DNA of 64,000 nt, taken from NCBI GenBank assembly GCA_903842575.1, contig CAIMMM010000006.1:11456-75455 (forward strand). Reading direction: 5' to 3'. This stretch comes from an uncultured Bacteroidota bacterium. Lineage in GTDB: Bacteria > Bacteroidota > Bacteroidia > Flavobacteriales > Flavobacteriaceae. The notes under the pieces are model-generated. The model did no database searches and was not told where the DNA came from. It saw nothing but the letters and a program-made list of their open reading frames with translations. Position numbers and translations under genes: made by a program. Shown piece after piece: positions 1,127-23,482 of the stretch (its first letter is position 1; the number at the start of each line of letters is the position of its first letter).

Positions 1127-2500
1127 TTATTGTATGGGTTTTAGTTTAGCCGTAAAGTGTCTTAGCATTTGTGCTTCTTCTATGATTTTAAGGCCTTTTA
1201 TTGCTGTTTTATTTTTAAAAACTTCTATTATTATTTCTGCTACATAATCGATGTGGCTTTGTGTATATACCCTTCTTGGAATTGCCAGACGAACCAATTC
1301 CAATGCTGCCGGGATTAAATTTCCATCATTATCATATTTGCCAAACATAAGCGAGCCAATTTCCACACTTCGAATACCTCCTTCTAAATATAAAGCACCC
1401 ACTAATGCTTGTCCCGGATATTGTTCAACAGGAATATGAGAAAGGAATTCTTTTGCGTCAAGATATACGGCATGACCGCCCGCTGGTTGCATTATTGGGA
1501 CACCCGCTTCAATCAATTTATTGGCAAGATATTCTATACTGCGGATGCGATATTGTAAGTAATTTTCATCTAGCACTTCGTTCAATCCAATAGCAATGGC
1601 TTCAAGATCTCTTCCTGCAAGACCACCATAAGTTGGAAACCCTTCGGTTATTACAAGTAGATTTCTGCATTGAAGTGCTAAATCTTCATTATACATAGCT
1701 AGGAAACCCCCAATATTGGCAAAAGCGTCTTTCTTGGCGCTCATCGTACAACCATCGGCATATGAAAAAAGTTCTTTTGCAATTTCTCTAACAGAAACAT
1801 TCTCATACCCTTTTTCTCTGGTTTTGATGAAATATGAATTCTCTGCAAATCGGCAAGCATCAATAAAAAGAGGGATGCCATTTGCCACACAAATTTCTTT
1901 AACATCCTTTATGTTTTGCATACTTACTGGTTGACCACCACCCGAATTATTGGTGACTGTAATCATACAAAGCGGAATATTTTCTGCTCCTTTTTCTGCA
2001 ACAAAATTTTTCAAGGCTTCAACATCCATGTTGCCTTTGAAAGGCGCCGGAATTGAAGGATGTTTCCCTTCTTTACATAAAAGATCTACTCCTTCCGCAC
2101 CTGAAAATTCAATATTGGCTCTTGTTGTATCAAACAAAGTGTTGCTCACAATATATTTCCCTTTACCACCAAGAATACTAAAAAGTATTTTTTCGGAGGC
2201 TCTACCTTGATGAGTAGGGATTACCAATGGCATTCCTGTGATTTGTTGTATGGTTTCTTGAAATCTAAAAAAGCTTGGGCTTCCCGCATACGATTCGTCT
2301 CCCTGCATTATTCCTGCCCATTGATTGCTACTCATGGCGCTAGTTCCGCTATCTGTCAATAAATCGATTATTACATCTGTGGAGTGTATCAAAAAAGGAT
2401 TATAATCTGCTGTTTCTAAAATATATTGTCTCTCTTCCTTGGTATTAAAATAAATGGGTTCAACAGATTTTATTCGGAAGGGTTCTATGATTGTTCTCAT
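1127..2500 (-). CDS. tnaA: beta-eliminating lyase, tryptophanase-like
   Basis: 457 aa. Motifs EPFRIKSVEP, DLLTDSGTSAMS, IPTHQGR, SAKKDAF (PLP lysine) and LFDTTR. The C-terminal LRHFTAKLKP resembles E. coli TnaA. Only 15 nt upstream of the next lyase gene. Confidence 0.7.
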   Translation of the reverse strand: MRTIIEPFRIKSVEPIYFNTKEERQYILETADYNPFLIHSTDVIIDLLTDSGTSAMSSNQWAGIMQGDESYAGSPSFFRFQETIQQITGMPLVIPTHQGRASEKILFSILGGKGKYIVSNTLFDTTRANIEFSGAEGVDLLCKEGKHPSIPAPFKGNMDVEALKNFVAEKGAENIPLCMITVTNNSGGGQPVSMQNIKDVKEICVANGIPLFIDACRFAENSYFIKTREKGYENVSVREIAKELFSYADGCTMSAKKDAFANIGGFLAMYNEDLALQCRNLLVITEGFPTYGGLAGRDLEAIAIGLNEVLDENYLQYRIRSIEYLANKLIEAGVPIMQPAGGHAVYLDAKEFLSHIPVEQYPGQALVGALYLEGGIRSVEIGSLMFGKYDNDGNLIPAALELVRLAIPRRVYTQSHIDYVAEIIIEVFKNKTAIKGLKIIEEAQMLRHFTAKLKPIQ

Positions 2501-2727
2501 AAGTGATTTTTTTAAGTTAATTGGAATTGCCTTGTCTTCATTGGCGTAAGCTTACACAAGCTTTTAAAACTTGGGAATTTCATAAAATAGTTAAAATTTA
2601 AAGTAATTTAAATGGAGAGTGCCCCCGCAAAGTGATGGTCTTAGGGGCTTTAAAAATTATGAAGGATGTTTTATGATATTTTTCCAATGTTTCATGATAC
2701 AAAGGTGATTTTTCTAATTTAAATTTT

Positions 2728-2743
2728 ATATGATTTTTATCAT
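2728..2743. promoter_or_regulatory. Fnr/Crp-type palindrome TATGAT-tttt-ATCATA (distal site upstream of ric)
   Basis: Perfect 6+4+6 inverted repeat read directly. Core TGAT-N4-ATCA matches the FNR-box core. Confidence 0.5.
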
Positions 2744-2782
2744 ACTCTATTTAATAGCTTAGGGCTAAAATTAGTTTCATTA

Positions 2783-2798
2783 TTATGATTACCATCAT
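2783..2798. promoter_or_regulatory. Fnr/Crp-type palindrome TATGAT-tacc-ATCATA (proximal site upstream of ric-nrdDG)
   Basis: Perfect 6+4+6 inverted repeat. Its centre lies about 32-39 bp upstream of a TAAATTTG -7 box (2822..2829), a class-II-like position. Confidence 0.55.
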
Positions 2799-2821
2799 AC
2801 ATATCAATAATCGATATCCTG

Positions 2822-2829
2822 TAAATTTG
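2822..2829 (+). promoter_or_regulatory. Bacteroidota sigma-A -7 box (TAnnTTTG) for ric-nrdDG
   Basis: TAAATTTG, 15 nt upstream of the ric ATG. Matches the TAnnTTTG consensus. Confidence 0.45.
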
Positions 2830-2843
2830 AAAAAAAAATAGTT

Positions 2844-3572
2844 ATGGAAATTATGGGAAAAAAGACAATCGGAGAATATGTTGCAAAAGATTTTAGAACT
2901 GCAGCCGTTTTTTCAAAACACAAAATTGATTTCTGCTGCAAAGGCAATAGAACTTTAGAAGAAGTTTGCCAAAAAAAAGGATTAGACAATAAACTTATAC
3001 AAAATGAAATCATTTCAGTCTTGGAAACTAAAAATGATACTACTACCGATTTTAATTCTTGGGATTTGGATTTATTAATTGATTATATTGAGAAAAAACA
3101 CCATCGTTATATAGAAGAGAAAACACCATCTATTTTACAATTTTTGGAAAAACTATGCAAAGTCCATGGCGAAAGACATCCTGAACTTTTTGACATTAAT
3201 GTTTTGTTTAATATTGGCGCTGGAGCATTGGCGCAACACATGAAAAAAGAAGAATTAATTTTATTTCCATATGTAAAAAAATTATGCCAAGCAATAAAAG
3301 AAAATTCATCCATAGAACAACCTCATTTTGGCACCATCGAAAACCCTATTGCAATGATGATGGATGAACATGAAAATGAAGGAGAGCGATATAGTAAAAT
3401 TTCACAATTAACCAACAATTATACTCCACCAGAAGATGCTTGTAATACTTATAAAGTAGCCTTTTTAATGTTACAAGAGTTTGAGCAAGATTTACACAAA
3501 CACATTCACCTAGAGAATAACATCCTCTTTCCAAAAGCCAAGGAAATAGAAAAACAATTTTCTATTTTATAA
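2844..3572 (+). CDS. ric: iron-sulfur cluster repair di-iron protein (RIC / ScdA / YtfE family)
   Basis: N-terminal ScdA_N-like KTIGEYVAKDFRTAAVFSKHKIDFCCKG. Hemerythrin-like His/Glu motifs (HHRYIEE, HMKKEE, MMDEHENEGE, HIHLENN). Confidence 0.85.
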   Translation: MEIMGKKTIGEYVAKDFRTAAVFSKHKIDFCCKGNRTLEEVCQKKGLDNKLIQNEIISVLETKNDTTTDFNSWDLDLLIDYIEKKHHRYIEEKTPSILQFLEKLCKVHGERHPELFDINVLFNIGAGALAQHMKKEELILFPYVKKLCQAIKENSSIEQPHFGTIENPIAMMMDEHENEGERYSKISQLTNNYTPPEDACNTYKVAFLMLQEFEQDLHKHIHLENNILFPKAKEIEKQFSIL

Positions 3573-3604
3573 TTAAAAAATTAAACACTAAAAAGCGATC
3601 ACCT

Positions 3605-5719
3605 ATGGAAAAATATGTTATCAAAAGAAACGGCGATTACAAACTTTTTGAATCCTTTAAAATAAAAGACGCTATTGAAAAAAGTTTTAAAAGTGTCTCA
3701 ATTCCATATAATGATAGCGTTTTTGAAAGTGTTATGGTTTCTATTGACATAAAGGAAACATGGGCTGTTGAGGAAATTCAAGATTTGATTGAAAAAATGC
3801 TTTTTCAAAAAGAGTATTTTAGTGTTATGCGTTCATTTATGTTATTTCGTCATACGAGAAAATTACAACGGGAACATATTCAAGGATTAAATGACGATAC
3901 AACCTATGTAGATAGTACGCAAACTATCGAAGAATATATTTCTCAAACCGATTGGAGAATTAATGCCAATGCCAATACATCTTATTCCAATGCTGGCTTA
4001 GTAAATAATGTAGCTGGGAAAATAATTGCCAATTATTGGCTGGACAAAGTATATACAAAAGAAGAAGGTTATGCCCATCGAAATGGTGATATTCATATCC
4101 ATGATTTGGATTGTTTGACTGGTTATTGTGCGGGATGGAGTTTGAGAGTTTTACTAAATGATGGCTTTAATGGTGTTCGTGGACGTGTGGAAAGTAAAGC
4201 GCCTTCCCATTTTAGAGAAGCACTTGGACAAATGGCAAATTTTCTGGGCATTCTTCAAAGCGAATGGGCCGGAGCTCAGGCTTTTAGTTCATTTGACACT
4301 TATTTGGCTCCGTATATTTTTAAAGACAATTTGTCATTTGATGATGTTTTAAAAGCGGTTCGAAGTTTTGTCTACAATTTGAATGTTCCAGCGCGTTGGG
4401 GGCAATCCCCTTTTACAAATATTACTTTAGATTGGGTTGTGCCTTCCGATTTAAAAGAGCAAATTCCAACCAAAAATGATCATCATTTATTTGAAACTAT
4501 AACCGATGAAAACGTAATCATTCGTTGCAAAGAAAGAGGGGTTGCTTCTTTAATTGAAATGCGTTATGAACATTTTCAAACCGAAATGAATTTGATTAAT
4601 AAAGCCTATTATACTGTAATGACAGAAGGTGATGCCAATGGACAACCTTTTACTTTTCCAATTCCAACTGTAAATATTACCGAAGATTTTGATTGGAATG
4701 GCGAAAACACCGAAATACTTTTTGAAAATACTGCTAAAATTGGTTCGTCCTATTTTCAAAATTTTATTGGAAGTCAATATGTTTTAGATGAATTAGGAAA
4801 TCGCGTTGAAAATCCTAATGCCTATAAACCCAATGCCGTTCGCAGCATGTGCTGTCGTTTGCAACTCGATTTAAGAGAGTTGTTAAAACGGGGGAACGGT
4901 CTTTTTGGAAGTGCCGAAATGACGGGAAGTATTGGTGTTGTAACAATTAATATGGCTCGATTAGGTTATTTATATGAAGGAAATAAAGAAGCTCTTTTCG
5001 ATCAATTGGATAAGCTAATGGAGATTTCAAAATCAACTTTAGAGAAAAAAAGGGTATTTATTCAGCAAATGTATGATAGAGGTTTGTTTCCTTATACTAA
5101 AAGATATTTACCTCATTTTCGGAATCATTTTTCAACCATCGGTGTTAACGGAATGAACGAGATGGTTCGAAATTTCACAAATGATAAAGACGATATTTCA
5201 TCTGATTTTGGCAATGATTTTTGTTTAGAAATTTTAAATCATATCCGAAATCGGATGAAAGAATTTCAAGAGCAAACAGGGAATCTGTACAATCTTGAAG
5301 CCACGCCAGCAGAAGGGACTACTTATCGTTTTGCCAAAGAAGATAAAAAACGTTTTCCAAATATTCTGCAAGCCGGAACTGGTGAGAATATCTATTACAC
5401 TAATAGTTCTCAAATTCCTGTTGATTTTACCCAAGATCCATTTGAAGCTTTACTTATGCAAGACGAATTGCAATGTAAATATACAGGAGGAACGGTTTTG
5501 CATTTATACATGAATGAAAGAATAAGTTCTTCTGAAGCGTGTAAAAATTTTGTAAAAACAGTCTTGACAAATTTCAAATTGCCTTATATAACGGTAACAC
5601 CTGTATTTAGTGTTTGCCCTATACATGGATATTTAAACGGAGAACATGAATATTGTCCAAAATGTGACGAAGTCTTAATTGAAAACCAAAACAACACACT
5701 ATATGAAAACAAAGACTAA
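3605..5719 (+). CDS. nrdD: anaerobic ribonucleoside-triphosphate reductase NrdD, catalytic body without the glycyl-radical motif (stops early)
   Basis: N-terminal ATP-cone (VIKRNGDYKLFESFKIKDAIEKSF), class III RNR body and a Zn-ribbon (CPIHG..CPKC). The ORF stops 40 nt after CPKC, and no RVxGY motif occurs in this frame. Confidence 0.85.
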   Translation: MEKYVIKRNGDYKLFESFKIKDAIEKSFKSVSIPYNDSVFESVMVSIDIKETWAVEEIQDLIEKMLFQKEYFSVMRSFMLFRHTRKLQREHIQGLNDDTTYVDSTQTIEEYISQTDWRINANANTSYSNAGLVNNVAGKIIANYWLDKVYTKEEGYAHRNGDIHIHDLDCLTGYCAGWSLRVLLNDGFNGVRGRVESKAPSHFREALGQMANFLGILQSEWAGAQAFSSFDTYLAPYIFKDNLSFDDVLKAVRSFVYNLNVPARWGQSPFTNITLDWVVPSDLKEQIPTKNDHHLFETITDENVIIRCKERGVASLIEMRYEHFQTEMNLINKAYYTVMTEGDANGQPFTFPIPTVNITEDFDWNGENTEILFENTAKIGSSYFQNFIGSQYVLDELGNRVENPNAYKPNAVRSMCCRLQLDLRELLKRGNGLFGSAEMTGSIGVVTINMARLGYLYEGNKEALFDQLDKLMEISKSTLEKKRVFIQQMYDRGLFPYTKRYLPHFRNHFSTIGVNGMNEMVRNFTNDKDDISSDFGNDFCLEILNHIRNRMKEFQEQTGNLYNLEATPAEGTTYRFAKEDKKRFPNILQAGTGENIYYTNSSQIPVDFTQDPFEALLMQDELQCKYTGGTVLHLYMNERISSSEACKNFVKTVLTNFKLPYITVTPVFSVCPIHGYLNGEHEYCPKCDEVLIENQNNTLYENKD

Positions 5720-5867
5720 CGAAGTTTTAGAACAAAATCAACATTTAAGAACAAAATGTTTGGTTTATACTAGAGTTATGGGGTATCACAGGCCTGTGGA
5801 AAGTTTTAATATTGGGAAAAAAGGAGAACACAAACAACGAGTTCATTTTAAAGAAAGTGTGTGTTAA
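5703..5867 (+). CDS. detached NrdD glycyl-radical domain in the +1 frame (frameshifted C-terminus or stand-alone peptide)
   Basis: Translation ..KCLVYTRVMGYHRPVESFNIGKKGEHKQRVHF carries the RV-x-GY glycyl-radical signature. ATG at 5703 (the track ORF begins at TTG 5679). It overlaps the nrdD stop, and nrdG overlaps its own end. Confidence 0.6.
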   Translation: MKTKTNEVLEQNQHLRTKCLVYTRVMGYHRPVESFNIGKKGEHKQRVHFKESVC

Positions 5868-6535
5868 CAAAACCTATTTATAATATTACACCATTTACCT
5901 TATTAGATTATCCAAATAAATCGGCTTGTATCCTTTGGTATTCAGGTTGTAATATGCGGTGTTTGTATTGCTATAATCCCGAAATTGTTTTAGGAAAAGG
6001 AACTCTTTCTTTTTCTGAAGCAATTTCTTTTTTAAAAAAGAGAAAAGGATTGCTTGATGCTGTTGTTTTTAGTGGTGGTGAGTGTTTAATTCATAAAAAT
6101 ATTATTGAACAAATCAGAGAAGTAAAAGCATTAGGGTTTTTAATAAAAATTGACACCAATGGCTCAAATTCATTGGTTTTACAACAATTGATTGCAGAAA
6201 ACCTAATTGATTATGTTGCATTAGATTTCAAAACTGTTAGAAGTAAGTTTCAGGAAATCACAAATTCAAATTTGTTTATAGAATTTGAAAAATCATTTGA
6301 AACACTTCTTAATAACAATGTGAAATTTGAAATAAGAACTACTTACCACTCCAATCTTATATCAAATGATGATTTAAAAGAAATGTCGAATTATCTTGAA
6401 TCCAAAAAATATTTGGGAAATTACTATATACAATCTTTTAAAAATAATGTTGAAACCATCGGAAAATTGCCAGCTTCATTAAGAATAAAGGAAACTAGAA
6501 ACGCATTAAATTATAGTGTGTTTTTTAGAAATTAA
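5861..6535 (+). CDS. nrdG: anaerobic ribonucleoside-triphosphate reductase activating protein (radical SAM)
   Basis: ITPFTLLDYPNKSACILWYSGCNMRCLYCYNP has the CxxxCxxC motif. Follows nrdD directly. GTG start. Confidence 0.85.
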   Translation: MLTKPIYNITPFTLLDYPNKSACILWYSGCNMRCLYCYNPEIVLGKGTLSFSEAISFLKKRKGLLDAVVFSGGECLIHKNIIEQIREVKALGFLIKIDTNGSNSLVLQQLIAENLIDYVALDFKTVRSKFQEITNSNLFIEFEKSFETLLNNNVKFEIRTTYHSNLISNDDLKEMSNYLESKKYLGNYYIQSFKNNVETIGKLPASLRIKETRNALNYSVFFRN

Positions 6536-7843
6536 TTTCAAGTTTTTTAATAGCTCAAAGACAATTATATACAATCCTACAAATATTCCCATCCCAAAAA
6601 GTACAAACACTGTATAAATCCAATGCAGTGAATCTTGAAATTTACTAAACGAAAGTATTTGATTAAAATACATCCAGTATCCTTTTTTTATTCCCAATAG
6701 CAATAGAGTCAACCAAAAAAGCATGAAAGAAATACTAAAGATTTTAGTTCCAATGTGTATTCTTTTTTCTGAAATAAAAGTGATTTTTTTCTCCAAGTCT
6801 AAAATATATGCGATTGAGGATAATAGTATTAGTGTGTTAATTCCAATAGTTGTTCCCATGGAATGAGCAACCGTAATATGGGTGCCATGAGTAAATAAAT
6901 TAATGGATGGAATAGATATTAATAAGGCTAAAACAATGTTTAAAAATATCCAAAAATTTGCCAAAAGCATAAATTTATAGGCTATCGAATATTCAATTTT
7001 CTTTTCTTTAGACAAGCTCTTTTTCCAATCATAAATTATTGAAAATAAAATAATCCATTCTGTCATACTGATACCATAAGCTAAATATCTAATCCATGGT
7101 GCCGTAGGAACAATGTAAATGTGATGCGCCCAACCAAACATTAAATTGATTAACCCAAGAAAGTAAAAGAAAAATGCTTTTTTAGATTGTGCATAACTAT
7201 CATCGTTACTGATTTTTGACATAACAAAGAGAGCCGTTCCATAAATCAACATATTCCAAGAACCCACATAGGAACCACCAGATTTCCATTGCATTGCTAT
7301 ATTTTGCACAAAATTATCTCTAAAATAAGGCAACATCCATAAATGTGCTTCCGTGAAATGATAGATCATAAACCCAATTCCTGTTGCCCACATCCAAAAA
7401 TAAACAGGCCAACTTTTAAATGACGGCAACATTGTTTTATAATAATTTATTCCAAATAAAATCCATCCTGAAACAATTGGAAAATAAAAATAGGGAGGGA
7501 ATTCTAAATATTCCCTTCCACTAAAATTATGTAAAACATAGGAGATAGCAATTCCAATTCCGGCACAAACAAAGAGCCAAAAATGTACCTTTATGAGTTT
7601 TAGATTATATATTTTAAGGTTGGGATTTGTGTTTAAATAATAATAAATTCCACCAATGGAAGAAAGTAATATCCAGGAAACAACGAAAAGAGTATGAAGA
7701 GGACGCAGCGCATTGAAAGGCAAAATGTCTTTCATAAAATCAGGGATGATGTATTGAAAGCCTGCCAATAATCCACAAAGCAAACCAAGAAGTAATGAAA
7801 TCAAACCTACTATAATAAAGTAAAAAGGATATTTATTTTTCAT
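6506..7843 (-). CDS. heme-copper oxidase superfamily subunit I-like protein (NorB/CcoN-like, divergent)
   Basis: About 12 predicted TM segments. Motifs RPLH (aa 47-50), YHFTEAH (161-167), WAHH (238-241) and THGTHITVAHSMG (318-330), which parallels the CcoN motif SHYTDWTIGHVHSG. Its start overlaps the upstream cytochrome c gene. Confidence 0.65.
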   Translation of the reverse strand: MKNKYPFYFIIVGLISLLLGLLCGLLAGFQYIIPDFMKDILPFNALRPLHTLFVVSWILLSSIGGIYYYLNTNPNLKIYNLKLIKVHFWLFVCAGIGIAISYVLHNFSGREYLEFPPYFYFPIVSGWILFGINYYKTMLPSFKSWPVYFWMWATGIGFMIYHFTEAHLWMLPYFRDNFVQNIAMQWKSGGSYVGSWNMLIYGTALFVMSKISNDDSYAQSKKAFFFYFLGLINLMFGWAHHIYIVPTAPWIRYLAYGISMTEWIILFSIIYDWKKSLSKEKKIEYSIAYKFMLLANFWIFLNIVLALLISIPSINLFTHGTHITVAHSMGTTIGINTLILLSSIAYILDLEKKITFISEKRIHIGTKIFSISFMLFWLTLLLLGIKKGYWMYFNQILSFSKFQDSLHWIYTVFVLFGMGIFVGLYIIVFELLKNLKLISKKHTII

Positions 7844-8270
7844 GATTCACTTTTTTATATTTAATTCTAACCCAACCATCGTTTTCTATTGAAGCGTTCA
7901 CATTTGGATAATGCCCTGTTTTATCTATTTCTTCTAAAAACTGATATAGCGCCTCTTTTTCTGTCTCTTTAAAATTAAATCTTGGCATAGCTTTTATGCC
8001 GCTGCTCAACAAGGCTTTGATATATGCTTTATCTTTACCTTTAACGGAGACAATATTAGTCAAGTCGGGCCCAAGATAGCCGCCTAATCCGTAAATTTGA
8101 TGACAGGAATTGCAGTTGTTTGTCAACCAAATATTTTCACCATCAATAGCTTTTTTAGATAAATGAATTGTACCATAATCAGATTTTGAAGTATAAATAG
8201 TGAAATTATAAATACTAAAAATGATAATTAAAATAAGTAGAATTATTAAATATATCCTTGAGTGTTTCAT
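7833..8270 (-). CDS. membrane-anchored mono-heme cytochrome c (NorC-like position)
   Basis: One CNSCH heme-binding motif, a downstream AMPRF (candidate Met ligand) and an N-terminal TM helix. I prefer the start at MKHSRIYLI (ATG 8270..8268) over the longer track ORF. Confidence 0.7.
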   Translation of the reverse strand: MKHSRIYLIILLILIIIFSIYNFTIYTSKSDYGTIHLSKKAIDGENIWLTNNCNSCHQIYGLGGYLGPDLTNIVSVKGKDKAYIKALLSSGIKAMPRFNFKETEKEALYQFLEEIDKTGHYPNVNASIENDGWVRIKYKKVNHEK

Positions 8271-8294
8271 TAAGCAATAAAATATCTTAATCAC

Positions 8295-8329
8295 AAAAAA
8301 GCGTGAATTAAAACAGTTCACGCTTTTTT
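8295..8329 (-). terminator. rho-independent terminator-like hairpin after the fasciclin gene
   Basis: AAAAAAGCGTGAA-ttaaaacag-TTCACGCTTTTTT. On the minus strand the stem is followed by a T-run. Confidence 0.55.
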
Positions 8330-8370
8330 ACTTTAATTAAAATGAATAATATTTTTGAATTAATAATTAT

Positions 8371-8925
8371 TTATTTTGGCAATAGCACATCTCCAATTAC
8401 GTGTATAATCCCGTTAGAAGTTGGAATAGAAGCTAAAATTTCAGAACCGTTTACAAAAGTTTTATCTCCTTTTTTAGTGATTTTTACTTTTCCGCCAAAC
8501 ACCATATCATACTCTTGACCATCTTGCATGTACTCGGTTTTTAAAGTCCCAACATAAGTATGATAACCTAAAATATTTTGTAAATCTCCTTTTTTCTCAG
8601 GTTTCAACAATCCTTCAACAGTTCCTGCAGGAAGTTTGGCGAATGCTGCATTGGTTGGTGCAAAAACGGTAAAAGGACCCGCATTACTCAATGCTCTTAC
8701 TAAATCGGCAGCTTTTACAGCCGCAACTAAAGTTGTATGGTCTTTACTGCCAACAGCAACTTGAACAATGTTTGGCGACGAAGTTTCGTCAACAACACCT
8801 TCTTGTCCTGCGGCTTGTGTTTCGGTTGTTTCTGTAGTAGATGCTGATGCTGATTCACTGTTGTTCTTGCAACCAAAAGCAATAAGCAAACTCGCTAATA
8901 ACAAAGTTGTAATTGATTTTTTCAT
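8371..8925 (-). CDS. fasciclin (FAS1) domain lipoprotein
   Basis: Lipobox LIAFGC. FAS1 motifs TVFAPTNAAFAKLP and NGIIHVIGDVLLP. Confidence 0.8.
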   Translation of the reverse strand: MKKSITTLLLASLLIAFGCKNNSESASASTTETTETQAAGQEGVVDETSSPNIVQVAVGSKDHTTLVAAVKAADLVRALSNAGPFTVFAPTNAAFAKLPAGTVEGLLKPEKKGDLQNILGYHTYVGTLKTEYMQDGQEYDMVFGGKVKITKKGDKTFVNGSEILASIPTSNGIIHVIGDVLLPK

Positions 8926-8989
8926 AATATAAATGTTTATTTTATTTTAGTTTATAAATGCAAAGTAATTCATTATATGAATGATATTA

Positions 8990-9005
8990 TATGATATTAA
9001 TCATA
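8990..9005. promoter_or_regulatory. Fnr/Crp-type palindrome TATGAT-atta-ATCATA upstream of the fasciclin gene
   Basis: Perfect 6+4+6 inverted repeat. Overlaps the stop codon of the 9001..10248 gene. Centre about 72 bp upstream of the fasciclin ATG. Confidence 0.5.
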
Positions 9006-10248
9006 AAAGCGGAGAATTTTTATTTTTCTTTATAGAATAAATAGATGTGATTCCAATTCCAGTAACTAGTATAATAGCAATTCCAAAGAGCATTCCATTC
9101 ACGTGGGGTATAACAGTATAACTAAACGATGCAATGCCTTGTATTGCAAGTATAATTTCATTTAATAAAACCCCAATTGAAAAAATAATTACGCCTATTT
9201 TAATTTGTTTATTGAAATGAATGAAATGATTGGCATAAATATAAAAGAGCAAGAACAAACTAATAATTGCTAATAAAACCAGGTGTAAATAGGCAATGAC
9301 TATGGGTCTAAATCCAAATGCTAATTGACTTAAAGCGGGTATTGTTGAGCCCAATTGAAGTAAAAATTTTACGCTCAATGAAAAACCAACAAAAAGCAAA
9401 ATATAGCGCAAAAAGAATGGGTGATTATCAATCAATTCTTGTTTTGTTTTTACAAGAAGAATTAAAAATCGGAGCCATGAATAAACTTGAATGAAAGATG
9501 CAATTACCGTTACTACATATATCCAAATAGGCAAATCCCACCAAAGAGTAGATAAAAAATAAGCGGGAATACATGAAAAGAAAAAGAGTTTAAAGACAGT
9601 TGCGTAAAAGGGATTTTCGGAGGCTTTCAAATTCAAAAAAGAGAATAATAATCCCATACAAGCAAAGAAAAACCAACCGTTATATTGGAAATGCAAATAG
9701 AAATAAATGGAAGCTAAATATTCTTCCTGATGAATATTTTTAGTAATCATCATATATGCTAAAGCAAAAGTGCCTAGTGATGAAAGAATAGCAAAAAAGA
9801 GTGCTGCTTTAAACCAATTTTTAGATAAATCATCGGCGGGAATTAACTTTAAATCTTTGATGAAATAATAAGCAAAAAAGCAAAAAACTAGAATTGACGC
9901 CGTCGAAAATAGAATAGAGAAAAATCCATATCCTTCTATGCAGAAAAAAATTAACATGCCGTAAGCACAAATTAAATTTGCCACAAGAATGGCATTGTAT
10001 TTTTTACAACTCTTGTCTAATGTGTCTCGCCACGCCTCTTTCTTCACCAAAAAAGAAATCATTAACACCATCAAAGTATGACTAATCCAACCCGAAAACG
10101 CAAAATGGGAATGGGAATGTTGCAAATGTTTTTGGTCAAAAAAAGGAAATTCAAAACCAATTTTATATCGCATTAAGACACCAATTAGAGCAACAATTAA
10201 AAGGTTAATTAATGAAAATTTTAACCAAAACTTACTATTAAATTTCAT
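9001..10248 (-). CDS. polytopic membrane protein with a His-rich motif, function unknown
   Basis: 415 aa, about 12 hydrophobic segments, motif HLQHSHSHFAFSGW near TM2. Its ATG overlaps the TAA of the upstream Crp/Fnr gene by 1 nt. Confidence 0.55.
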   Translation of the reverse strand: MKFNSKFWLKFSLINLLIVALIGVLMRYKIGFEFPFFDQKHLQHSHSHFAFSGWISHTLMVLMISFLVKKEAWRDTLDKSCKKYNAILVANLICAYGMLIFFCIEGYGFFSILFSTASILVFCFFAYYFIKDLKLIPADDLSKNWFKAALFFAILSSLGTFALAYMMITKNIHQEEYLASIYFYLHFQYNGWFFFACMGLLFSFLNLKASENPFYATVFKLFFFSCIPAYFLSTLWWDLPIWIYVVTVIASFIQVYSWLRFLILLVKTKQELIDNHPFFLRYILLFVGFSLSVKFLLQLGSTIPALSQLAFGFRPIVIAYLHLVLLAIISLFLLFYIYANHFIHFNKQIKIGVIIFSIGVLLNEIILAIQGIASFSYTVIPHVNGMLFGIAIILVTGIGITSIYSIKKNKNSPLL

Positions 10249-10835
10249 TAGTAATATATTTTATGATTGATGATTTCTACCTTATTGCTAGCACTCATTT
10301 TAGCAAAAACACGTATTACAGTTTCTACTCTTAATCCCGTAAAATTAGCAATCTCTTGTCGTGTGAAAGGTACAATTTCTTTTTTGTCGCTATTTACTTT
10401 CTTATGTGCCTTTAAAAAAGCAATGATTCTAAACTCTGGTTTTTGATTAATTATAGCTGTAGTAGATTTTGCTTTGGAATGGATTCGTTTACACATCAAC
10501 TCCAAGAACTGTTTTTGAATATTAGGATATTCATCTAATATTTTTAAAAACTTTTCTTTCGACAATTTAATAATCTTGCTTTCTTGAAATGCAATCGCTA
10601 TTGATGGATATGTCTCATTAATAAACAAAGGAGGTTCACCAAAACTGTCTCCTGAATTAAAATATCCTTGTGTAAATTCTTTCCCTTCATCATTTGAATT
10701 AATCATTTTTACATTGCCATCCACAATTTGATAATAAAAATTAGCCGTTTCATTTTCATTAAAAATTACTTCGCCTTTTTTATATTCTTTAGCAATAGCT
10801 CCCCAAGTAAAAAGTAAATCTAAATCTATTTGCAT
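10248..10835 (-). CDS. Crp/Fnr family transcriptional regulator (no N-terminal Cys cluster)
   Basis: cNMP-binding-like beta-roll (GDSFGEPPLF). C-terminal HTH TRQEIANFTGLRVETVIRVFAKM with an E-T-V-x-R recognition helix like FNR. Only one Cys in the whole protein. Confidence 0.8.
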   Translation of the reverse strand: MQIDLDLLFTWGAIAKEYKKGEVIFNENETANFYYQIVDGNVKMINSNDEGKEFTQGYFNSGDSFGEPPLFINETYPSIAIAFQESKIIKLSKEKFLKILDEYPNIQKQFLELMCKRIHSKAKSTTAIINQKPEFRIIAFLKAHKKVNSDKKEIVPFTRQEIANFTGLRVETVIRVFAKMSASNKVEIINHKIYY

Positions 10836-11054
10836 TTCTGATTATTAGATTGTTATGTGATAAATCGATGCCTTTTTTTCACAACATATATTAAGGTTGC
10901 AAAATTAAACAATATGATTTCACTAAAAACTGACTATTATCATATTAAAGGATAAAATTCTTATTGTAAATTTGCCCCGTGAAAAAAATTTTATAAAAAT
11001 GAATTCACGCGTGTATTTTTTCATCTAATAAAAAACACTAAACCAAACAACTTT

Positions 11055-11426
11055 TTGAAAAAAATATTGATTATAGTAGCGTTGCTAATGTTTCTAAAAC
11101 CAACACTTCCGGTTTTAGATTATGCTATTAATTATAATTATATCTCAAAAGTGCTTTGTAAAAACAAAGATAAACCAAAAATGCATTGTAATGGAAAGTG
11201 TCATTTGATGAAAGAATTGGCGAAAGCTTCCGAGCAAGAAAAACCCATTTTCCCTAATAAAAAAACATCTATGCAAGAACAGGAAGTGTTGTTTTTTCAT
11301 AAGCTAAAATCATTAATTGTTGAGCAAATTTATTTTCAAAACACAACATCTAGTGGTGACAATTATACCAATTTGTATTTTTATATGAATAGTTGTAGCA
11401 CTTTCCATCCACCAACATTAGCCTAA
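11055..11426 (+). CDS. small secreted or membrane-anchored protein with a C-x11-C-x3-C-H motif, hypothetical
   Basis: TTG start, N-terminal hydrophobic segment, motif LCKNKDKPKMHCNGKCHLMKEL. Confidence 0.5.
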   Translation: MKKILIIVALLMFLKPTLPVLDYAINYNYISKVLCKNKDKPKMHCNGKCHLMKELAKASEQEKPIFPNKKTSMQEQEVLFFHKLKSLIVEQIYFQNTTSSGDNYTNLYFYMNSCSTFHPPTLA

Positions 11427-11519
11427 ATTTTATCGTTTTAAAAGCGTAATTATCATTGGCCTTTTGACTTTTGATGGTTTAGTATGCTATAGTTTTATTT
11501 AAAAATTTAAAAAACACAA

Positions 11520-12440
11520 ATGAAAAAAATATTTTTAGTTGTTGTACTACTAATTACAGCACTACAATCGTTTAGCCAATGCGCTTGTTGCGCAGGTGCT
11601 GGAATTGGCTCCTCAAATGGCGATTATAACAATGGGATTTTAACCTTGCCCCAGAAACTGTTTCTTGTTGAAGCCTATTCCGATTACAGAACAATAAAAA
11701 ATGGAAATGCTCCCGAGGAAGACGAAAAACTTTTAACAAAAATGTTGATTAGTTCATTGGGCATTCGCTATGGCGTTACCAAAAACTTGACCGTTTCTGT
11801 ATTATTACCCTACGTGAATTTATATACAAACAGTGGCTCTGATGGCGGATTTGGCGATTTAATTTTACTTGGGTCTTATAATATTTATTCAAAAGAAAAA
11901 TTCAATTTTGCCATTCAAGCCGGAATTGAACTTCCAACCGGAGAACAAAAAAACTCTAGTTTTGATAATACTACCGTAATTGTTGGGTCTGGGTCTTATG
12001 ATCCAATGATTGGGATTTTATTTTCAAAGCAATGGAACAAGCTTACTTTAAGCGGAAATGCGCTATATAAGCATACTACAAATGGGTTTCAAGACAACTA
12101 TTATGGAAGCTTATCCGTTCATGGCGTAGGTGTTTCCTATAAAATTAAAGGGGAAAGTTCTATTTGCGAAACGGATAGTTTAGCAACTAAAACTGCTAGT
12201 AATTTTGGTCTGTCTGCAATGGTTGGCTATAGTGGCGAATGGTTGGACAAACTAAAAGAAGATGGAGTTGTGGATGAAAATTCGGGACATTATTTAGGAC
12301 TTGCCAATTTTGGCGGCACTTTTTTATATAAAAAATGGGCTTTCCCCCTAACGCTTTCTATGCCAATTATTAATAAAATGAATGGGCTTCAAAATGATTT
12401 TGGTTACCGATTTAGAATAGGTGTCATTCGAGCTTTTTAA
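11520..12440 (+). CDS. outer-membrane beta-barrel protein (MetA-pathway/transporter-like family)
   Basis: Signal peptide, alternating beta-strand pattern, GFGDL and ELPTGE motifs, terminal aromatic residue (..GVIRAF). The mature N-terminus begins QCACCAGAG. Confidence 0.55.
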   Translation: MKKIFLVVVLLITALQSFSQCACCAGAGIGSSNGDYNNGILTLPQKLFLVEAYSDYRTIKNGNAPEEDEKLLTKMLISSLGIRYGVTKNLTVSVLLPYVNLYTNSGSDGGFGDLILLGSYNIYSKEKFNFAIQAGIELPTGEQKNSSFDNTTVIVGSGSYDPMIGILFSKQWNKLTLSGNALYKHTTNGFQDNYYGSLSVHGVGVSYKIKGESSICETDSLATKTASNFGLSAMVGYSGEWLDKLKEDGVVDENSGHYLGLANFGGTFLYKKWAFPLTLSMPIINKMNGLQNDFGYRFRIGVIRAF

Positions 12441-12452
12441 TTTATCCATCAC

Positions 12453-12483
12453 AAAAAAGGAACTCCATTGAGTTCCTTTTTTT
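12453..12483. terminator. bidirectional rho-independent terminator between convergent genes
   Basis: AAAAAAGGAACTC-catt-GAGTTCCTTTTTTT. A perfect 7-bp GC-containing stem flanked by an A-run and a T-run. Confidence 0.7.
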
Positions 12484-13717
12484 ATTTCTTCAAAATTCCA
12501 ACAACCGTTCCCAACATAACATTGGCTCCAATTGCCAAATCTTCATAGGATGAATATTCTAGCGGATTATGACTAATGCCGTCTTTACAACGCACGAAGA
12601 TCATGCCGTAATCGCAGGCATAAGAAAGCGCTAATGCATCGTGGAATGGACCACTCATTAATTCAATTTCGTCCAATTGCAGTTTTTGACATTCGGCGTG
12701 AATAAGTTCTTTAATCCAATCGGCGCAATAACGTGGATCGCTTTTGGTATCTTCAGAGATTTCGTAAGTTAATTTATGTTTCTTAGTAATTCCTTCAATT
12801 CGGTCACGAAGTTGTTTCTCGTAGCGATTTCTTCGTTCCAAATCAATATCGCGTAAGTCAACGGTAAACGTCACTTCTTCGGGAATAATATTTCGGGAGG
12901 CTGGAAAAACATTAATAGTTCCAACGGTTCCAACGGTTGGCGCGCCAGGAATTTGAGTGGCAATTTCGTTAACCGCAACAATGATTTCTGCGGCACCAAC
13001 TAAAGCATCTTTTCTAATTGGCATTGGTACAGAACCTGTGTGTCCTGCCATTCCTTTGAGTTTGACTGTCCACCACAATGGTCCTGAAATTCCGGAAACC
13101 ACCCCAATAGGTTTGTTTGCCATATCGAGAACTGGGCCTTGTTCAATGTGTAATTCCAAAAAGCAAAAGATACTACCTTGCTTGTATTCGGAGGCTTTGA
13201 ATTGCGTAACATCGCAGCCAAAATCTTTTAACGCTTGTTCGCGCGTAATTCCGTCTTTATCGGCGCGTTGCAATTCGCCTTCTTCTAGTTTTCCTAGAAT
13301 CCCTCGGGAACCAAACAATCCTTTATTAAAACGCCAACCTTCTTCATCGGCAAAGGAAATCACTTCAATAGATCGCTCGGAAGCAATGTTGTTTTCATGC
13401 AGTGTCGCCACTACTTCAATGGCGCACAAAACGCCAGCTACGCCATCAAAGCGTCCGCCATAAGGTTGGGAATCGAGATGAGAGCCCATCATCAAAACTG
13501 GTAAGTCCGGATTTTTGCCTTCGAGTCTTCCGATTAGATTTCCAAAATTATCAATACGCGTTGTCATTCCGGCCTCTTGCATCCAAGAAGCAGCAATTTC
13601 AAATCCTTGCTTTTCGAGTGCTGTATGTGCCGGCCGACACGTTCCGGTTTCTCCAATTTTACCAATTAGACTCATGGCTTCAAAATGCTGCTGTAGTCTT
13701 TGAGAATTTATCTTCAT
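12482..13717 (-). CDS. M20-family amidohydrolase (allantoate amidohydrolase / N-carbamoyl-amino-acid / beta-ureidopropionase type)
   Basis: MMGSHLDSQPYGGRFDGVAGV, FADEEG and ELHIEQGPVL motifs typical of AmaB/AllC-type Zn hydrolases. Last gene of the pyrimidine operon. Confidence 0.75.
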   Translation of the reverse strand: MKINSQRLQQHFEAMSLIGKIGETGTCRPAHTALEKQGFEIAASWMQEAGMTTRIDNFGNLIGRLEGKNPDLPVLMMGSHLDSQPYGGRFDGVAGVLCAIEVVATLHENNIASERSIEVISFADEEGWRFNKGLFGSRGILGKLEEGELQRADKDGITREQALKDFGCDVTQFKASEYKQGSIFCFLELHIEQGPVLDMANKPIGVVSGISGPLWWTVKLKGMAGHTGSVPMPIRKDALVGAAEIIVAVNEIATQIPGAPTVGTVGTINVFPASRNIIPEEVTFTVDLRDIDLERRNRYEKQLRDRIEGITKKHKLTYEISEDTKSDPRYCADWIKELIHAECQKLQLDEIELMSGPFHDALALSYACDYGMIFVRCKDGISHNPLEYSSYEDLAIGANVMLGTVVGILKK

Positions 13718-13749
13718 GTTATTTTAGATTAAAGAACGTAGAATATAGA

Positions 13750-13795
13750 CTAAAGAAATATCACTACTTCTTTCCTCTATATTCTATTCTCTATT
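13750..13795. repeat. intergenic nested hairpin (M20 hydrolase / preA spacer)
   Basis: AGAATATAG..AAAGAA-n10-TTCTTT..CTATATTCT. Confidence 0.5.
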
Positions 13796-13808
13796 TTCTT
13801 ATTTCTTT

Positions 13809-15077: not shown

Positions 15078-15119
15078 AATAGTATTATTTAGTTCCGATA
15101 GTTTCGGAAGTTGAATTTT

Positions 15120-16499: not shown

Positions 16500-16521
16500 A
16501 TTTTGGTTGGTTTTATGGTTT

Positions 16522-16577
16522 TTGTCATTCTGAAGCAGGAAGAATCTCTGAGTTCTCTCCTTTGTTGGGATGACAAG
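16522..16577. repeat. intergenic inverted repeat of the GTCATTCTGA..GAAGAATCTC type (preT / CN-hydrolase spacer)
   Basis: TTGTCATTCTGAAGCAGGAAGAATCTC ... GGGATGACAAG. The arms pair over about 12 bp including G-U pairs. Confidence 0.5.
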
Positions 16578-16591
16578 TTTGTAAATATTTA

Positions 16592-17458: not shown

Positions 17459-17475
17459 GTCTTTAATGGTGAATG

Positions 17476-17534
17476 GTGAATTGTAAATGGTGCATGAATT
17501 TTATCAAACTCAAAATTCATCACTCACAATTCAC
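17476..17534. repeat. intergenic nested hairpin (CN-hydrolase / dihydropyrimidinase spacer)
   Basis: GTGAATTGT..ATGAATTTT-n9-AAAATTCAT..ACAATTCAC, preceded by the tandem GGTGAATGGTGAAT. Confidence 0.5.
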
Positions 17535-17540
17535 AATTAA

Positions 17541-18923: not shown

Positions 18924-18927
18924 GATG

Positions 18928-20382: not shown

Positions 20383-20432
20383 GTTTTTGATTTATTACGC
20401 TGCGCTCCATACAATTCGGCAACGCCTCGGGT

Positions 20433-21791: not shown

Positions 21792-21801
21792 TTGTGTTTT
21801 A

Positions 21802-23259: not shown

Positions 23260-23401
23260 TTATTTCTGGTTTATTTTATATAATATTTCAATAAAAATAG
23301 TAACTAATTATTAATATACAAGTTTTGCTTGTGAAAAATCAATAATTGATAAAGTTTTTAGGTTTTTACTTCCTTTAAAAAAGGCTTTCAGTCCTTAATT
23401 T

Positions 23402-23437
23402 GAAAACAAAACCTCCAACACTAATGTTAGAGGTTTT
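23402..23437 (-). terminator. rho-independent terminator after the M13 peptidase gene
   Basis: Minus strand reads AAAAACCTCTAACATTAGTGTTGGAGGTTTTGTTTTC, a hairpin plus a T-rich tail. Confidence 0.6.
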
Positions 23438-23482
23438 TCAATATTTATTATAAATGTTTTTGTGTTTTAAACAATCTCTAAA

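What the first reader, a model, noticed from the sequence alone, without database searches (positions are those of the whole stretch)
6506..8270. norCB-like gene pair whose oxidase subunit has Met in place of the second helix-X histidine
Seen: a membrane-anchored mono-heme cytochrome c (CNSCH) is translationally coupled (11-nt overlap) to a 445-aa, ~12-TM protein. That protein has heme-copper-oxidase-like motifs RPLH50, H162/H167, H240-H241 and T-H-G-T-H-I-T-V-A-H327-S-M329. Aligned to the CcoN motif as I recall it (S-H-Y-T-D-W-T-I-G-H-V-H), the first His (high-spin heme ligand) is kept. The H-x-H second His (low-spin heme ligand) is Met. The spacing between the helix-II His and the next His cluster is also shorter than in canonical NorB/CcoN. 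The genomic context is ric, nrdDG and a Dnr/HcpR-like regulator, which fits NO handling. Inference: a divergent member of the NO-reductase-like branches of the superfamily, with possible His/Met ligation of the electron-entry heme.
Basis: partly seen in the sequence, partly recalled or inferred. Interest (0 to 1): 0.65.

Follow-up and report, generated by a model that had tools for sequence, protein, structure and literature searches.

The report
NorCB-like enzyme with rebuilt active site
This lake Flavobacterium carries a two-gene relative of bacterial nitric-oxide reductase, from a widespread but biochemically untested family that has swapped one haem ligand (His to Met) and lost one of the three histidines that normally hold the catalytic metal, so its chemistry probably differs from any studied enzyme of this superfamily.

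Summary
Window 7833-8270(-) encodes a NorC-like mono-haem cytochrome c. It overlaps by 11 nt a 445-aa, 12-helix haem-copper-superfamily subunit at 6506-7843(-). Alignments to the cNOR structures place Met329 where NorB has the second axial His of haem b (PaNorB H349). Met is kept in 68 of 69 diverse relatives, and no other conserved His could substitute.

They are not conserved. Three alignment methods put invariant Gly190 at the canonical helix-VI metal His. The FeB glutamate is deleted and the cbb3 cross-link Tyr is Asn233. Lys187, one helical turn away, is conserved and covaries perfectly with Gly190 and Glu262. A cross-phylum subgroup has His187/Asp190/Ala262 instead.

The family forms a third lineage beside cNOR and cbb3 and occurs in at least 591 species. 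It always has its own NorC-like gene, sometimes next to a canonical norCBQD.

A TGAT-N4-ATCA palindrome lies upstream of it, ric and nadAB.

I infer that it reduces a nitrogen oxide, most likely NO. It is probably the uncharacterised "N2O red" family of Murali et al. 2024, which I could not verify. Function is untested.

The parts
6506..7843 (-). 445-aa haem-copper-superfamily subunit I (NorB-like, 'Met/Lys type'). Proposed roles: H50 + M329 ligate low-spin haem b; H327 is the proximal ligand of the high-spin haem; H240/H241 are the retained metal ligands; K187, G190, N197, N233, E262 line the remodelled pocket; E111/E114/E165 are periplasmic carboxylates.
7833..8270 (-). 145-aa membrane-anchored mono-haem cytochrome c, a NorC paralogue. 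It has CNSCH at 53-57, the 'GLGGYLGPDL' Gly/Tyr Ca-site motif and the 'AMP' Met95 ligand. It overlaps the subunit I gene by 11 nt.
6857..6859 (-). Codon ATG for Met329, at the position of PaNorB His349 (sixth ligand of haem b).
7274..7285 (-). Codons K187-S-G-G190. Gly190 is at the position of the canonical helix-VI metal His (PaNorB/PsCcoN H207). Lys187 is one helical turn towards the periplasm.
8295..8329 (.). 15-bp-stem hairpin flanked by A and T runs, between the fasciclin gene and the cyt c gene. It is terminator-like and conserved in relatives.
8281..8294 (-). GTGATTAAGATATT, a remnant of the GTGAT-N4-ATCAT operator. Relatives have this operator about 50 nt upstream of the cyt c start. 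Here the second half-site and the following ~45 nt (including a TAnnTTTG-like element) are missing.
8991..9004 (.). Perfect ATGAT-N4-ATCAT palindrome 66 nt upstream of the fasciclin gene. It is the candidate operator for a fasciclin-cytc-HCO transcript.
8371..8925 (-). Fasciclin-domain lipoprotein-like gene immediately upstream, on the same strand.
9001..10248 (-). 415-aa polytopic membrane protein with no Pfam or NCBIfam family. It neighbours Crp and/or RIC in 30 of 80 related loci.
10248..10835 (-). Crp/Fnr-family regulator with a single Cys, so no FNR-type cluster (Dnr/NnrR/HcpR-like). Probable binder of the TGAT-N4-ATCA boxes (inferred).
2844..3572 (+). RIC/ScdA/YtfE di-iron Fe-S repair protein, preceded by two perfect boxes at 2730-2743 and 2785-2798.
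3605..6535 (+). nrdD body (3605-5719), a separate 54-aa glycyl-radical ORF (5703-5867) and nrdG (5861-6535): anaerobic ribonucleotide reductase, convergent with the HCO gene.

Best explanation
The pair encodes a cytochrome-c-dependent, two-subunit oxidoreductase of a distinct, widespread lineage of the C-type/NOR branch of the haem-copper superfamily. Proposed electron path (inferred by homology with cNOR): periplasmic donor, then haem c of the NorC-like subunit, then low-spin haem b ligated by His50/Met329, then high-spin haem b3 (His327). His/Met ligation is expected to raise the haem b potential. The catalytic pocket is rebuilt. Only the two helix-VII histidines (H240/H241) remain. Gly190 replaces the helix-VI His. 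The FeB Glu and the cross-link Tyr are absent. Lys187 paired with Glu262 takes their place, either as substitute ligands of a non-haem metal or as a charged pair replacing it. Protons would come from the periplasm via the retained carboxylates E111/E114 (= PaNorB E135/E138) and the family-specific E165, so the enzyme would be non-electrogenic like cNOR. It is expressed as part of an NO/anoxia regulon. I commit to reduction of NO (detoxification or respiration) as the most likely reaction. Shown: fold, homology, ligand substitutions, family-wide conservation, covariation, synteny, shared operator. Inferred: haem and metal content, Met and Lys ligation, electron and proton path, substrate.
For: Fold and homology: the best PDB matches are cNOR NorB (profile E 1.6e-32 and 3.6e-25, TM 0.86-0.87), then cbb3 CcoN. 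The partner is a NorC homologue with haem and Ca-site motifs intact. Ligands: H50, H327 and H240-H241 are invariant; M329 is present in 68 of 69. No other invariant His exists except H319, the 'THGT' His that cNOR and cbb3 also have. Helix VI: HMMER versus cbb3, MAFFT and hhalign all put G190 at PaNorB H207, a gap at E211 and N197 at E215. Covariation at positions 187/190/262: K/G/E in 55, R/G/E in 1, H/D/A in 11, H/D/G in 1, Q/D/A in 1, with no mixed states. This argues that these three residues share one site. The His-x-x-Asp subgroup mimics the 3-His + carboxylate set of cNOR FeB. Selection: the family is found in at least 591 species genomes and always has its own cyt c gene. Regulon: a [AGC]TGAT-N4-ATCAT box lies ~50 nt upstream of cytc-HCO in 30 of 80 loci (8 more via osmC). 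It also lies upstream of nadA, ric, Rrf2 and unk603. 75 of 118 boxes fall in the 7.8% of the DNA that is intergenic. All three perfect ATGAT-N4-ATCAT copies in the 64-kb window lie in this locus. Neighbours are RIC, NsrR-like Rrf2, a Crp-family regulator, nrdDG, canonical norCBQD(E) and nosDFY.
Against: No experiment exists for any member that I could find. Two cNOR residues tied to NO reduction in helix VI are missing: FeB ligand E211 and E215. Their role is from established knowledge of P. aeruginosa and Paracoccus NorB, not tested here. Classical cNOR chemistry is therefore unlikely to apply unchanged. At least 14 of the first 80 loci also hold a canonical cNOR NorB a few kb away (norQ/norD are present in 25-26 loci). 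Seen from the canonical side, 10 of 80 cNOR loci hold the Met-type pair within 9 kb. A second plain NO reductase looks partly redundant. I had no model coordinates, so Met329-Fe and Lys187 geometry are unverified. In this window the pair's own operator and promoter are truncated.
Confidence: 0.45

Rival explanations
1. It is a NosZ-independent, membrane-bound nitrous-oxide reductase. This is the 'N2O red' idea of Murali, Hemp and co-workers for a cNOR-related family, prompted by the acetylene- and sulfide-insensitive membrane N2O reductase of Flexibacter canadensis.
For: Murali et al. 2024 describe an uncharacterised family 'closely related to cNOR', placed between the C-family and cNOR, without the cross-link Tyr. 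It was found in 293 GTDB r202 genomes. The present family fits on position, on Bacteroidota bias and on order of magnitude (at least 591 of 185,579 species). It often sits beside a canonical cNOR and beside nosDFY, as a next-step enzyme would. The loss of the FeB ligands argues for chemistry other than NO coupling.
Against: Identity with 'N2O red' could not be checked, because the supplements are not held. nosDFY next to it implies that those genomes already mature a NosZ. The shared operator groups it with ric, an NO-damage repair gene, rather than with nos genes specifically. Many loci have no denitrification genes nearby. There is no biochemical precedent for N2O reduction at a haem site of this superfamily.
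Confidence: 0.17
2. It handles another small oxidant. Candidates are high-affinity O2 scavenging, NO dismutation as proposed for the qNOR-derived NOD, or nitrite, hydroxylamine or peroxide reduction. The raised-potential haem b and the Lys/Glu pocket would be used for this.
For: Helix II 'RPLHT' and helix VI 'QW' are cbb3-like. Some members are fused to FixO- and CcoP-like haem c domains, which is a cbb3 subunit layout. NOD shows that loss of a metal ligand in this branch has been linked to new chemistry (PMC3413370, PMC11214002). OsmC (a peroxiredoxin-like protein) is co-transcribed in the closest relatives.
Against: There is no redox-active Tyr: N233 is at the cbb3 Y251 position and there is no H-x-x-x-Y in helix VI. 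O2 reductases of the superfamily all have one (PMC11214002). Nothing in the context points to nitrite, hydroxylamine or peroxide specifically.
Confidence: 0.2
3. It is not a catalyst but a haem-based NO/O2 sensor, a sink, or an electron-transfer module. For example, it could feed or protect neighbouring enzymes. In this particular genome it could be a decaying, poorly expressed remnant.
For: A metal-binding His is lost. In the window the operator half-site and promoter element upstream of cytc are deleted, reproducibly in four metagenome runs.
Against: Both ORFs are intact. The pocket residues K187, G190, N197, N233, E262 and E165 are invariant or coupled across hundreds of species and several phyla. 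The dedicated NorC-like electron-input subunit is always kept. A perfect box upstream of the fasciclin gene could drive a fasciclin-cytc-HCO transcript, as box-osmC-cytc-HCO does in the closest relatives.
Confidence: 0.08

Closest known systems
cNOR (NorCB), e.g. P. aeruginosa 3O0R and Roseobacter denitrificans 4XYD
   Same: Two subunits. NorC-like anchored mono-haem c with the Gly/Tyr Ca-site motif. 12-TM NorB fold (TM-score 0.86-0.87). The 'THGT..T.AH' helix-X motif, the HH pair in helix VII, the 'GRE(Y/F)LE' periplasmic glutamates, and E262 = PaNorB E280.
   Different: The haem b sixth ligand is Met, not His. The helix-VI FeB His is Gly. The FeB Glu211 is deleted. E215 is Asn. Lys187 and Glu165 are added. 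There is no norQ/norD in the window. It forms its own clade (200/200 bootstraps) and is as far from cNOR as cNOR is from cbb3.
cbb3 oxidase subunit CcoN (C-family), e.g. P. stutzeri 3MK7
   Same: Fold (TM 0.86). Helix II 'LRPLHT'. Helix VI 'VQW...'. Some family members carry fused FixO/CcoP-like domains.
   Different: No CuB helix-VI His. No cross-link Tyr (N233). Partner is NorC-like rather than CcoO/CcoP. NCBIfam ccoN scores 38 bits against a cut-off of 583.
'N2O red' family of Murali et al. 2024 (PNAS 121:e2316422121)
   Same: Described as an uncharacterised haem-copper family close to cNOR, lacking the Tyr, linked by the authors to a Bacteroidota phenotype, and of similar abundance.
   Different: The main text gives no active-site description, so the Met, Lys and Gly features reported here are not documented in what I could read. 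Membership is unverified.
nNOR, gNOR and some eNORs (B-family-derived proposed NORs)
   Same: nNOR is reported to have a His/Met low-spin haem. Some eNORs have His/Lys. gNOR replaces one active-site His by Asp. These are the same kinds of substitution.
   Different: Those families derive from B-type oxidases and have CuA subunits and cytoplasmic proton channels. This family is C-branch with a haem c subunit, so the similarity is convergent.
NOD (putative NO dismutase, qNOR-derived)
   Same: A C-branch enzyme in which loss of canonical active-site ligands prompted the proposal of new N-oxide chemistry (PMC3413370, PMC11214002).
   Different: NOD is a fused single polypeptide nested within qNOR. 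qNOR structures are more distant matches here (E 2.4e-18, TM 0.77).

Membership tests
cNOR (NorB/NorC) | NorC-type membrane-anchored mono-haem c subunit encoded upstream | tested here: met
   3o0r_C E 4.7e-10. CxxCH, Met ligand and Gly/Tyr motif are aligned.
cNOR (NorB/NorC) | 12-TM subunit I fold of the C/NOR branch | tested here: met
   AF2 pLDDT 94. Foldseek top hits are 3o0r_B and 4xyd_A, TM 0.86-0.87.
cNOR (NorB/NorC) | Bis-His low-spin haem b (PaNorB H60 + H349) | tested here: not met
   H50 is kept. H349 is replaced by M329, in 68 of 69 relatives.
cNOR (NorB/NorC) | FeB site of three His plus Glu (PaNorB H207, H258, H259, E211) | tested here: not met
   H240/H241 are kept. H207 aligns to G190 and E211 to a gap, by three alignment methods.
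cNOR (NorB/NorC) | Conserved glutamates E135/E138, E215, E280 (Pa numbering) | tested here: inconclusive
   E111/E114 and E262 are kept. E215 is N197.
cNOR (NorB/NorC) | NO reductase activity | not testable with these tools
   Needs an enzyme assay.
cbb3-type oxidase (CcoN) | CuB bound by three His, including the helix-VI His | tested here: not met
   PsCcoN 'QWWYGH207' aligns to 'QWKSGG190'.
cbb3-type oxidase (CcoN) | Helix-VII Tyr cross-linked to His (PsCcoN Y251) | tested here: not met
   It aligns to N233, which is Asn in 54 of 69 and Ser/Gly/Thr in the rest.
cbb3-type oxidase (CcoN) | Curated ccoN equivalog model TIGR00780 | tested here: not met
   37.7 bits against a cut-off of 583.
nNOR/eNOR/sNOR/gNOR/bNOR | B-family ancestry with a CuA-type subunit II | tested here: not met
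   The partner is a haem c NorC homologue. B-type ba3 structures are much weaker matches (TM 0.70-0.74) than cNOR and cbb3. The family definition is from PMC11214002.
'N2O red' (Murali et al. 2024) | Membership of the published clade next to cNOR | not testable with these tools
   Datasets S2-S4 are not held. Position, taxonomy and abundance are compatible.

The most novel reading that the evidence does not exclude
A haem-copper-superfamily enzyme whose non-haem metal site has been rebuilt. It would use two His plus a Lys/Glu pair, or His-x-x-Asp in a cross-phylum subgroup, together with a His/Met electron-entry haem. It would catalyse a reaction no characterised member performs, most notably NosZ-independent reduction of N2O to N2. 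That would be an unrecognised biological N2O sink in hundreds of aquatic and marine Bacteroidota.
Probability: 0.17. Interest if true: 0.9.

Novelty: new variant of a known kind. Interest (0 to 1): 0.62.

Why it matters
Haem-copper NO reductases are a main biological source of N2O. Genome surveys score these genes as 'norB' or 'cbb3 subunit I': JGI names relatives NorB and NCBI names them cbb3 subunit I. This family is in at least 591 species, mostly Flavobacteriales of lakes and seas. It lacks two features thought essential to either enzyme, so those annotations may misassign NO- or N2O-handling capacity. If it reduces NO with only two His and a Lys/Glu pair, it widens the set of active sites known to do this. 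If it reduces N2O, it is a second biological N2O sink. The natural His/Met versus bis-His pair and the K/G/E versus H/D/A pair give ready-made variants for testing how ligation tunes this scaffold.

Tried and rejected
- H162/H167 as helix-VI ligands: rejected. They are not conserved and lie at the end of TM5 and in the TM5-6 loop.
- Another conserved His as sixth ligand of haem b: none found. The invariant His are H50, H240, H241, H319 and H327 only.
- Classical FNR box TTGAT-N4-ATCAA with 2 mismatches: not enriched, 110 matches against 98 expected. The ATGAT-N4-ATCAT variant was the informative one.
- Supplements of Murali et al.: not held. The bioRxiv version, the FIND preprint and the Ignavibacterium and F. 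columnare genome papers gave no description of this family.
- The listing of cluster members gave no organism names. P0236 sits on a 1.5-kb contig with no context.
- No RNA runs hold this sequence, only lake and freshwater DNA metagenomes.
- Biopython NJ timed out and the Kimura distance was undefined at this divergence. I replaced them with my own NJ on Poisson distances. It has only 10 outgroup sequences and no qNOR, so it shows separateness, not branching order.
- Model coordinates are not exposed, so no distances could be measured.
- The scan for canonical Flavobacteriaceae cNOR was capped at 80 marine loci. It could not tell whether Flavobacterium species with the Met-type pair lack other NORs.
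- A divergent COX1-like protein in L101 was left out of the tree.
Full report
**1. What is there**

Two overlapping genes lie on the minus strand.
- The upstream gene (7833-8270, from the ATG) encodes a 145-aa protein. It has an N-terminal membrane anchor, CNSCH at residues 53-57 and an 'AMP' methionine.
- The downstream gene (6506-7843) encodes 445 aa. The overlap is 11 nt, ATGAAAAATAA.
- The large protein matches Pfam COX1 (E 9e-31). It falls far below the curated ccoN model, at 38 bits against a cut-off of 583.
- An AlphaFold2 model built on 58 diverse relatives is confident (pLDDT 94.2, pTM 0.94) and has twelve long helices.
- Foldseek ranks cNOR NorB first (3o0r_B and 4xyd_A, TM 0.86-0.87), then cbb3 CcoN (0.84-0.86), then qNOR (0.76-0.80) and ba3 (0.70-0.74).
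- The small protein is a NorC homologue (3o0r_C, E 4.7e-10). The haem motif, the Met ligand and the Gly/Tyr Ca-site motif all align.

**2. The Met is real and under selection**

HMMER alignments of the single sequence and of the family profile, plus hhalign, all pair 'AH327-S-M329' with PaNorB 'AH347-G-H349'. From established knowledge of the P. aeruginosa structure, H347 ligates haem b3, and H60 and H349 ligate haem b. The query therefore keeps H50 (= H60) and H327 (= H347), and has Met at the sixth-ligand position of haem b.

An exhaustive HMMER search of 1.84 billion cluster representatives found 530 clusters. Among 69 full-length representatives, down to about 22% identity:
- position 329 is Met in 68 and Ile in 1;
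- H327, H240-H241 and E165 are invariant;
- H50 is present in 68.

The only other invariant His is H319, the 'THGT' His that cNOR and cbb3 also have.

**3.

H162 and H167 are not conserved: Thr/Ser/Ala at 162, and Asn/Tyr/Met/Phe and others at 167. They lie at the periplasmic end of TM5 and in the following loop.

Three independent alignments agree on helix VI: the profile against cbb3 CcoN, MAFFT with cNOR and cbb3, and hhalign against a cNOR alignment at 99.9% probability.
- The family motif is Q185-W-K187-S-x-G190-x-x-V-G-S-W-N197.
- G190 sits at the canonical metal His (H207 in both PaNorB and PsCcoN).
- There is a one-residue gap at the FeB ligand E211.
- N197 sits at E215.
- The cbb3 cross-link Tyr251 aligns to N233.

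So only the two helix-VII histidines of the three-His metal site remain.

Lys187 lies one helical turn from G190 and is conserved. Positions 187, 190 and 262 occur in only two coupled states:
- K(R)/G/E in 56 representatives;
- H(Q)/D/A(G) in 13 representatives.

E262 corresponds to PaNorB E280, which lies beside the FeB site (knowledge of the structure, not measured here).

My inference is that Lys187 reaches into the space freed by Gly190 and pairs with Glu262. It would act either as a substitute ligand of a non-haem metal or in place of the metal. In the minority 'QWH-G-x-D' subgroup, His187-x-x-Asp190 plus H240/H241 re-creates a three-His-plus-carboxylate set like cNOR FeB, displaced by one turn. 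I could not check distances, because model coordinates are not exposed.

**4. A separate lineage**

In a neighbour-joining analysis (440 columns, 200 bootstraps), the 58 family members separate from 8 cNOR and 2 cbb3 sequences in 200 of 200 replicates. The K-type and QWH-type subgroups are each supported, at 195 and 200. Mean distances are 1.70 (family to cNOR), 1.73 (family to cbb3) and 1.68 (cNOR to cbb3).

The sequence is a mosaic:
- helix II 'LRPLHT' and helix VI 'QW' resemble cbb3;
- 'THGT..T.AH', 'GREYLE' and E262 resemble cNOR.

Some members are fused to FixO-like and CcoP-like haem c domains. The outgroup is small and lacks qNOR, so the tree shows separateness, not branching order.

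**5. Distribution and context**

The 80 best are all Flavobacteriales. The QWH subgroup occurs in MAGs labelled Gamma- and Alphaproteobacteria, Verrucomicrobiota, Leptospirales, a Thermoanaerobaculia MAG (Acidobacteriota, by my own assignment) and other Bacteroidota. The NorC-like gene precedes the oxidase gene in essentially every locus.

In Flavobacterium the neighbourhood matches the window: ric-nrdD-nrdG convergent with the pair, and often fasciclin, a 415-aa membrane protein and a Crp-family regulator upstream.

In marine genera, a canonical norC-norB lies a few kb upstream on the same strand.
- The genera are Xanthomarina, Formosa, Tenacibaculum, Ichthyenterobacterium, Altibacter and Aequorivita.
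- The canonical NorB carries HLWVEGVWE and H-G-H, and is followed by norQ, norD and a CoxIII/NorE-like gene.
- The family is therefore a paralogue that coexists with true cNOR, not a drifting copy of it.
- Seen from the other side, only 10 of 80 canonical-cNOR loci have it within 9 kb. Tenacibaculum insulae carries the two about 1.1 Mb apart.

Other recurrent neighbours are nadA-nadB (55 of 80 loci, directly downstream), Rrf2 (31 loci), RIC (43 loci), nosD-F-Y, an unannotated ~600-aa protein and a tryptophanase-family gene. Some lineages show no N-oxide genes nearby.

**6. A shared operator**

A palindrome [A/G/C]TGAT-N4-ATCAT lies about 50 nt upstream of the cytc start in 30 of 80 loci. In 8 more it lies upstream of an osmC-cytc-HCO arrangement. 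It also lies upstream of nadA (14), ric (9), Rrf2 (7) and the ~600-aa gene (5). 75 of 118 occurrences fall in the 7.8% of DNA that is intergenic.

In the window, the only three perfect ATGAT-N4-ATCAT sites in 64 kb are at 2730 and 2785 (upstream of ric) and at 8991 (upstream of the fasciclin gene). The core is that of FNR/Dnr-type boxes. The adjacent Crp-family protein has a single Cys, so it cannot carry an FNR-type cluster (sequence). I infer a Dnr/NnrR/HcpR-like NO or haem sensor; the binding itself is untested.

Directly upstream of the window's cytc, only 'GTGATTAAGATATT' remains. Relatives have hairpin, full box, ~50 nt including a TAnnTTTG-like element, then ATG. The window has hairpin, half box, 10 nt, then ATG. 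Contigs from four metagenome runs of three studies are identical there, apart from one mismatch in X2's contig that I did not locate, so this is not an assembly error. Expression here probably depends on the box upstream of the fasciclin gene and on read-through of the 8295-8329 hairpin. This is inferred.

**7. Function**

The context says NO and anoxia. The architecture says cytochrome-c-fed reduction at a haem b3 pocket, with protons supplied from the periplasm.

NO reduction is the most economical reading, and I give it about 0.45. The missing FeB ligands mean the mechanism cannot be that of cNOR unchanged.

Murali et al. [quoted passage not shown] They count 293 GTDB genomes and place it between the C-family and cNOR. 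The present family fits that description, and I think it is probably the same. I could not verify this, because the supplements are not held.
- For the N2O idea: adjacency to nor and nos genes, and the altered site.
- Against it: nosDFY implies a NosZ is already present, and the operator is shared with ric.

The same paper reports His/Met haem ligation in nNOR and His-to-Asp replacement in gNOR, both B-family derivatives. Each substitution type has precedent by convergence. I found the combination seen here described nowhere.

**8. Verdict**

It is a new variant of a known kind, and its function is open.

Noticed in passing
window 3605-5867 (+); also L001, L002, L006, L007, L009, L011-L013, L015-L018, L020, L021, L023, L027, L028, L032, L038, L066, L075: nrdD is split. 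A 704-aa ORF covers model positions 3-649 of 684 and stops at 5719. The last 36 positions, including the glycyl-radical motif RVMGY, are in a separate 54-aa ORF in the +1 frame. That ORF starts at ATG 5703, inside the end of the first ORF, and overlaps the nrdG start. The arrangement is conserved in more than 20 Flavobacterium-type loci. It is therefore either a separately made glycyl-radical peptide or a programmed frameshift, not an error.
   Followed up: partly
window 2730-2743, 2785-2798, 8991-9004; L001-L080: A conserved [AGC]TGAT-N4-ATCAT operator defines a Flavobacteriales regulon. It includes the cytc-HCO pair, ric, nadAB, Rrf2, an unannotated ~600-aa gene and CoA-transferase/ligase genes. 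The likely regulator is the local Crp-family protein.
   Followed up: partly
window 8271-8330: Compared with relatives, about 45 nt are missing between the conserved hairpin and the cytc start. The missing stretch held half of the operator and a TAnnTTTG-like promoter element. The sequence is identical in contigs of four lake or freshwater metagenome runs from three studies, apart from one unlocated mismatch in one run's contig.
   Followed up: yes
window 9001-10248 (-): A 415-aa polytopic membrane protein with a His-rich motif (HLQHSHSHF) has no Pfam or NCBIfam match. It is translationally coupled to the Crp-family gene and is found next to RIC or Crp in 30 of 80 related loci. It is an unknown member of the NO-response neighbourhood.
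   Followed up: no
L027 9385-11196; L051 3370-5277; L074 947-2875; L101 2787-4622: A ~600-aa protein with no Pfam family follows nosD-nosF-nosY in several genomes. It often carries the same operator upstream.
   Followed up: no
L001-L080, directly downstream of the HCO gene (e.g. L051 9330-11833): nadA-nadB (quinolinate synthase and L-aspartate oxidase) follow the pair in 55 of 80 loci and have their own box. This is an unexpected link between NAD synthesis and the NO/anoxia regulon. These genes are absent from this position in the window.
   Followed up: no
window 1127-2500 (-); L101 7203-8594: A tryptophanase / tyrosine phenol-lyase family gene (687 bits to PRK13238) lies divergent from ric in the window and immediately upstream of the cytc-HCO pair in a distant relative. 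It is a recurrent, unexplained neighbour.
   Followed up: no
P0139, P0151, P0159, P0196 (about 790-825 aa): Some family members are fused at the C-terminus to haem c domains: P0139, P0151 and P0159 to FixO-like and CcoP-like domains, P0196 to a cytochrome c domain only. This is a cbb3-like subunit layout on a Met-type subunit I. Their Met and Lys status was not tabulated.
   Followed up: partly
L101 16532-17884 (-): A very divergent 450-aa COX1-like protein lies next to DUF2249/DUF1858, hemerythrin and RIC genes, about 6 kb from the Met-type pair. It may be another uncharacterised superfamily member.
   Followed up: no
window 2001-12000 versus 12001-24000: The NO-response locus has 29-34% G+C, against 38-40% in the adjacent pyrimidine-catabolism cluster (preT/preA-like, hydantoinase, CN-hydrolase, permease). 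The cause could be acquisition or simply membrane-protein bias.
   Followed up: no
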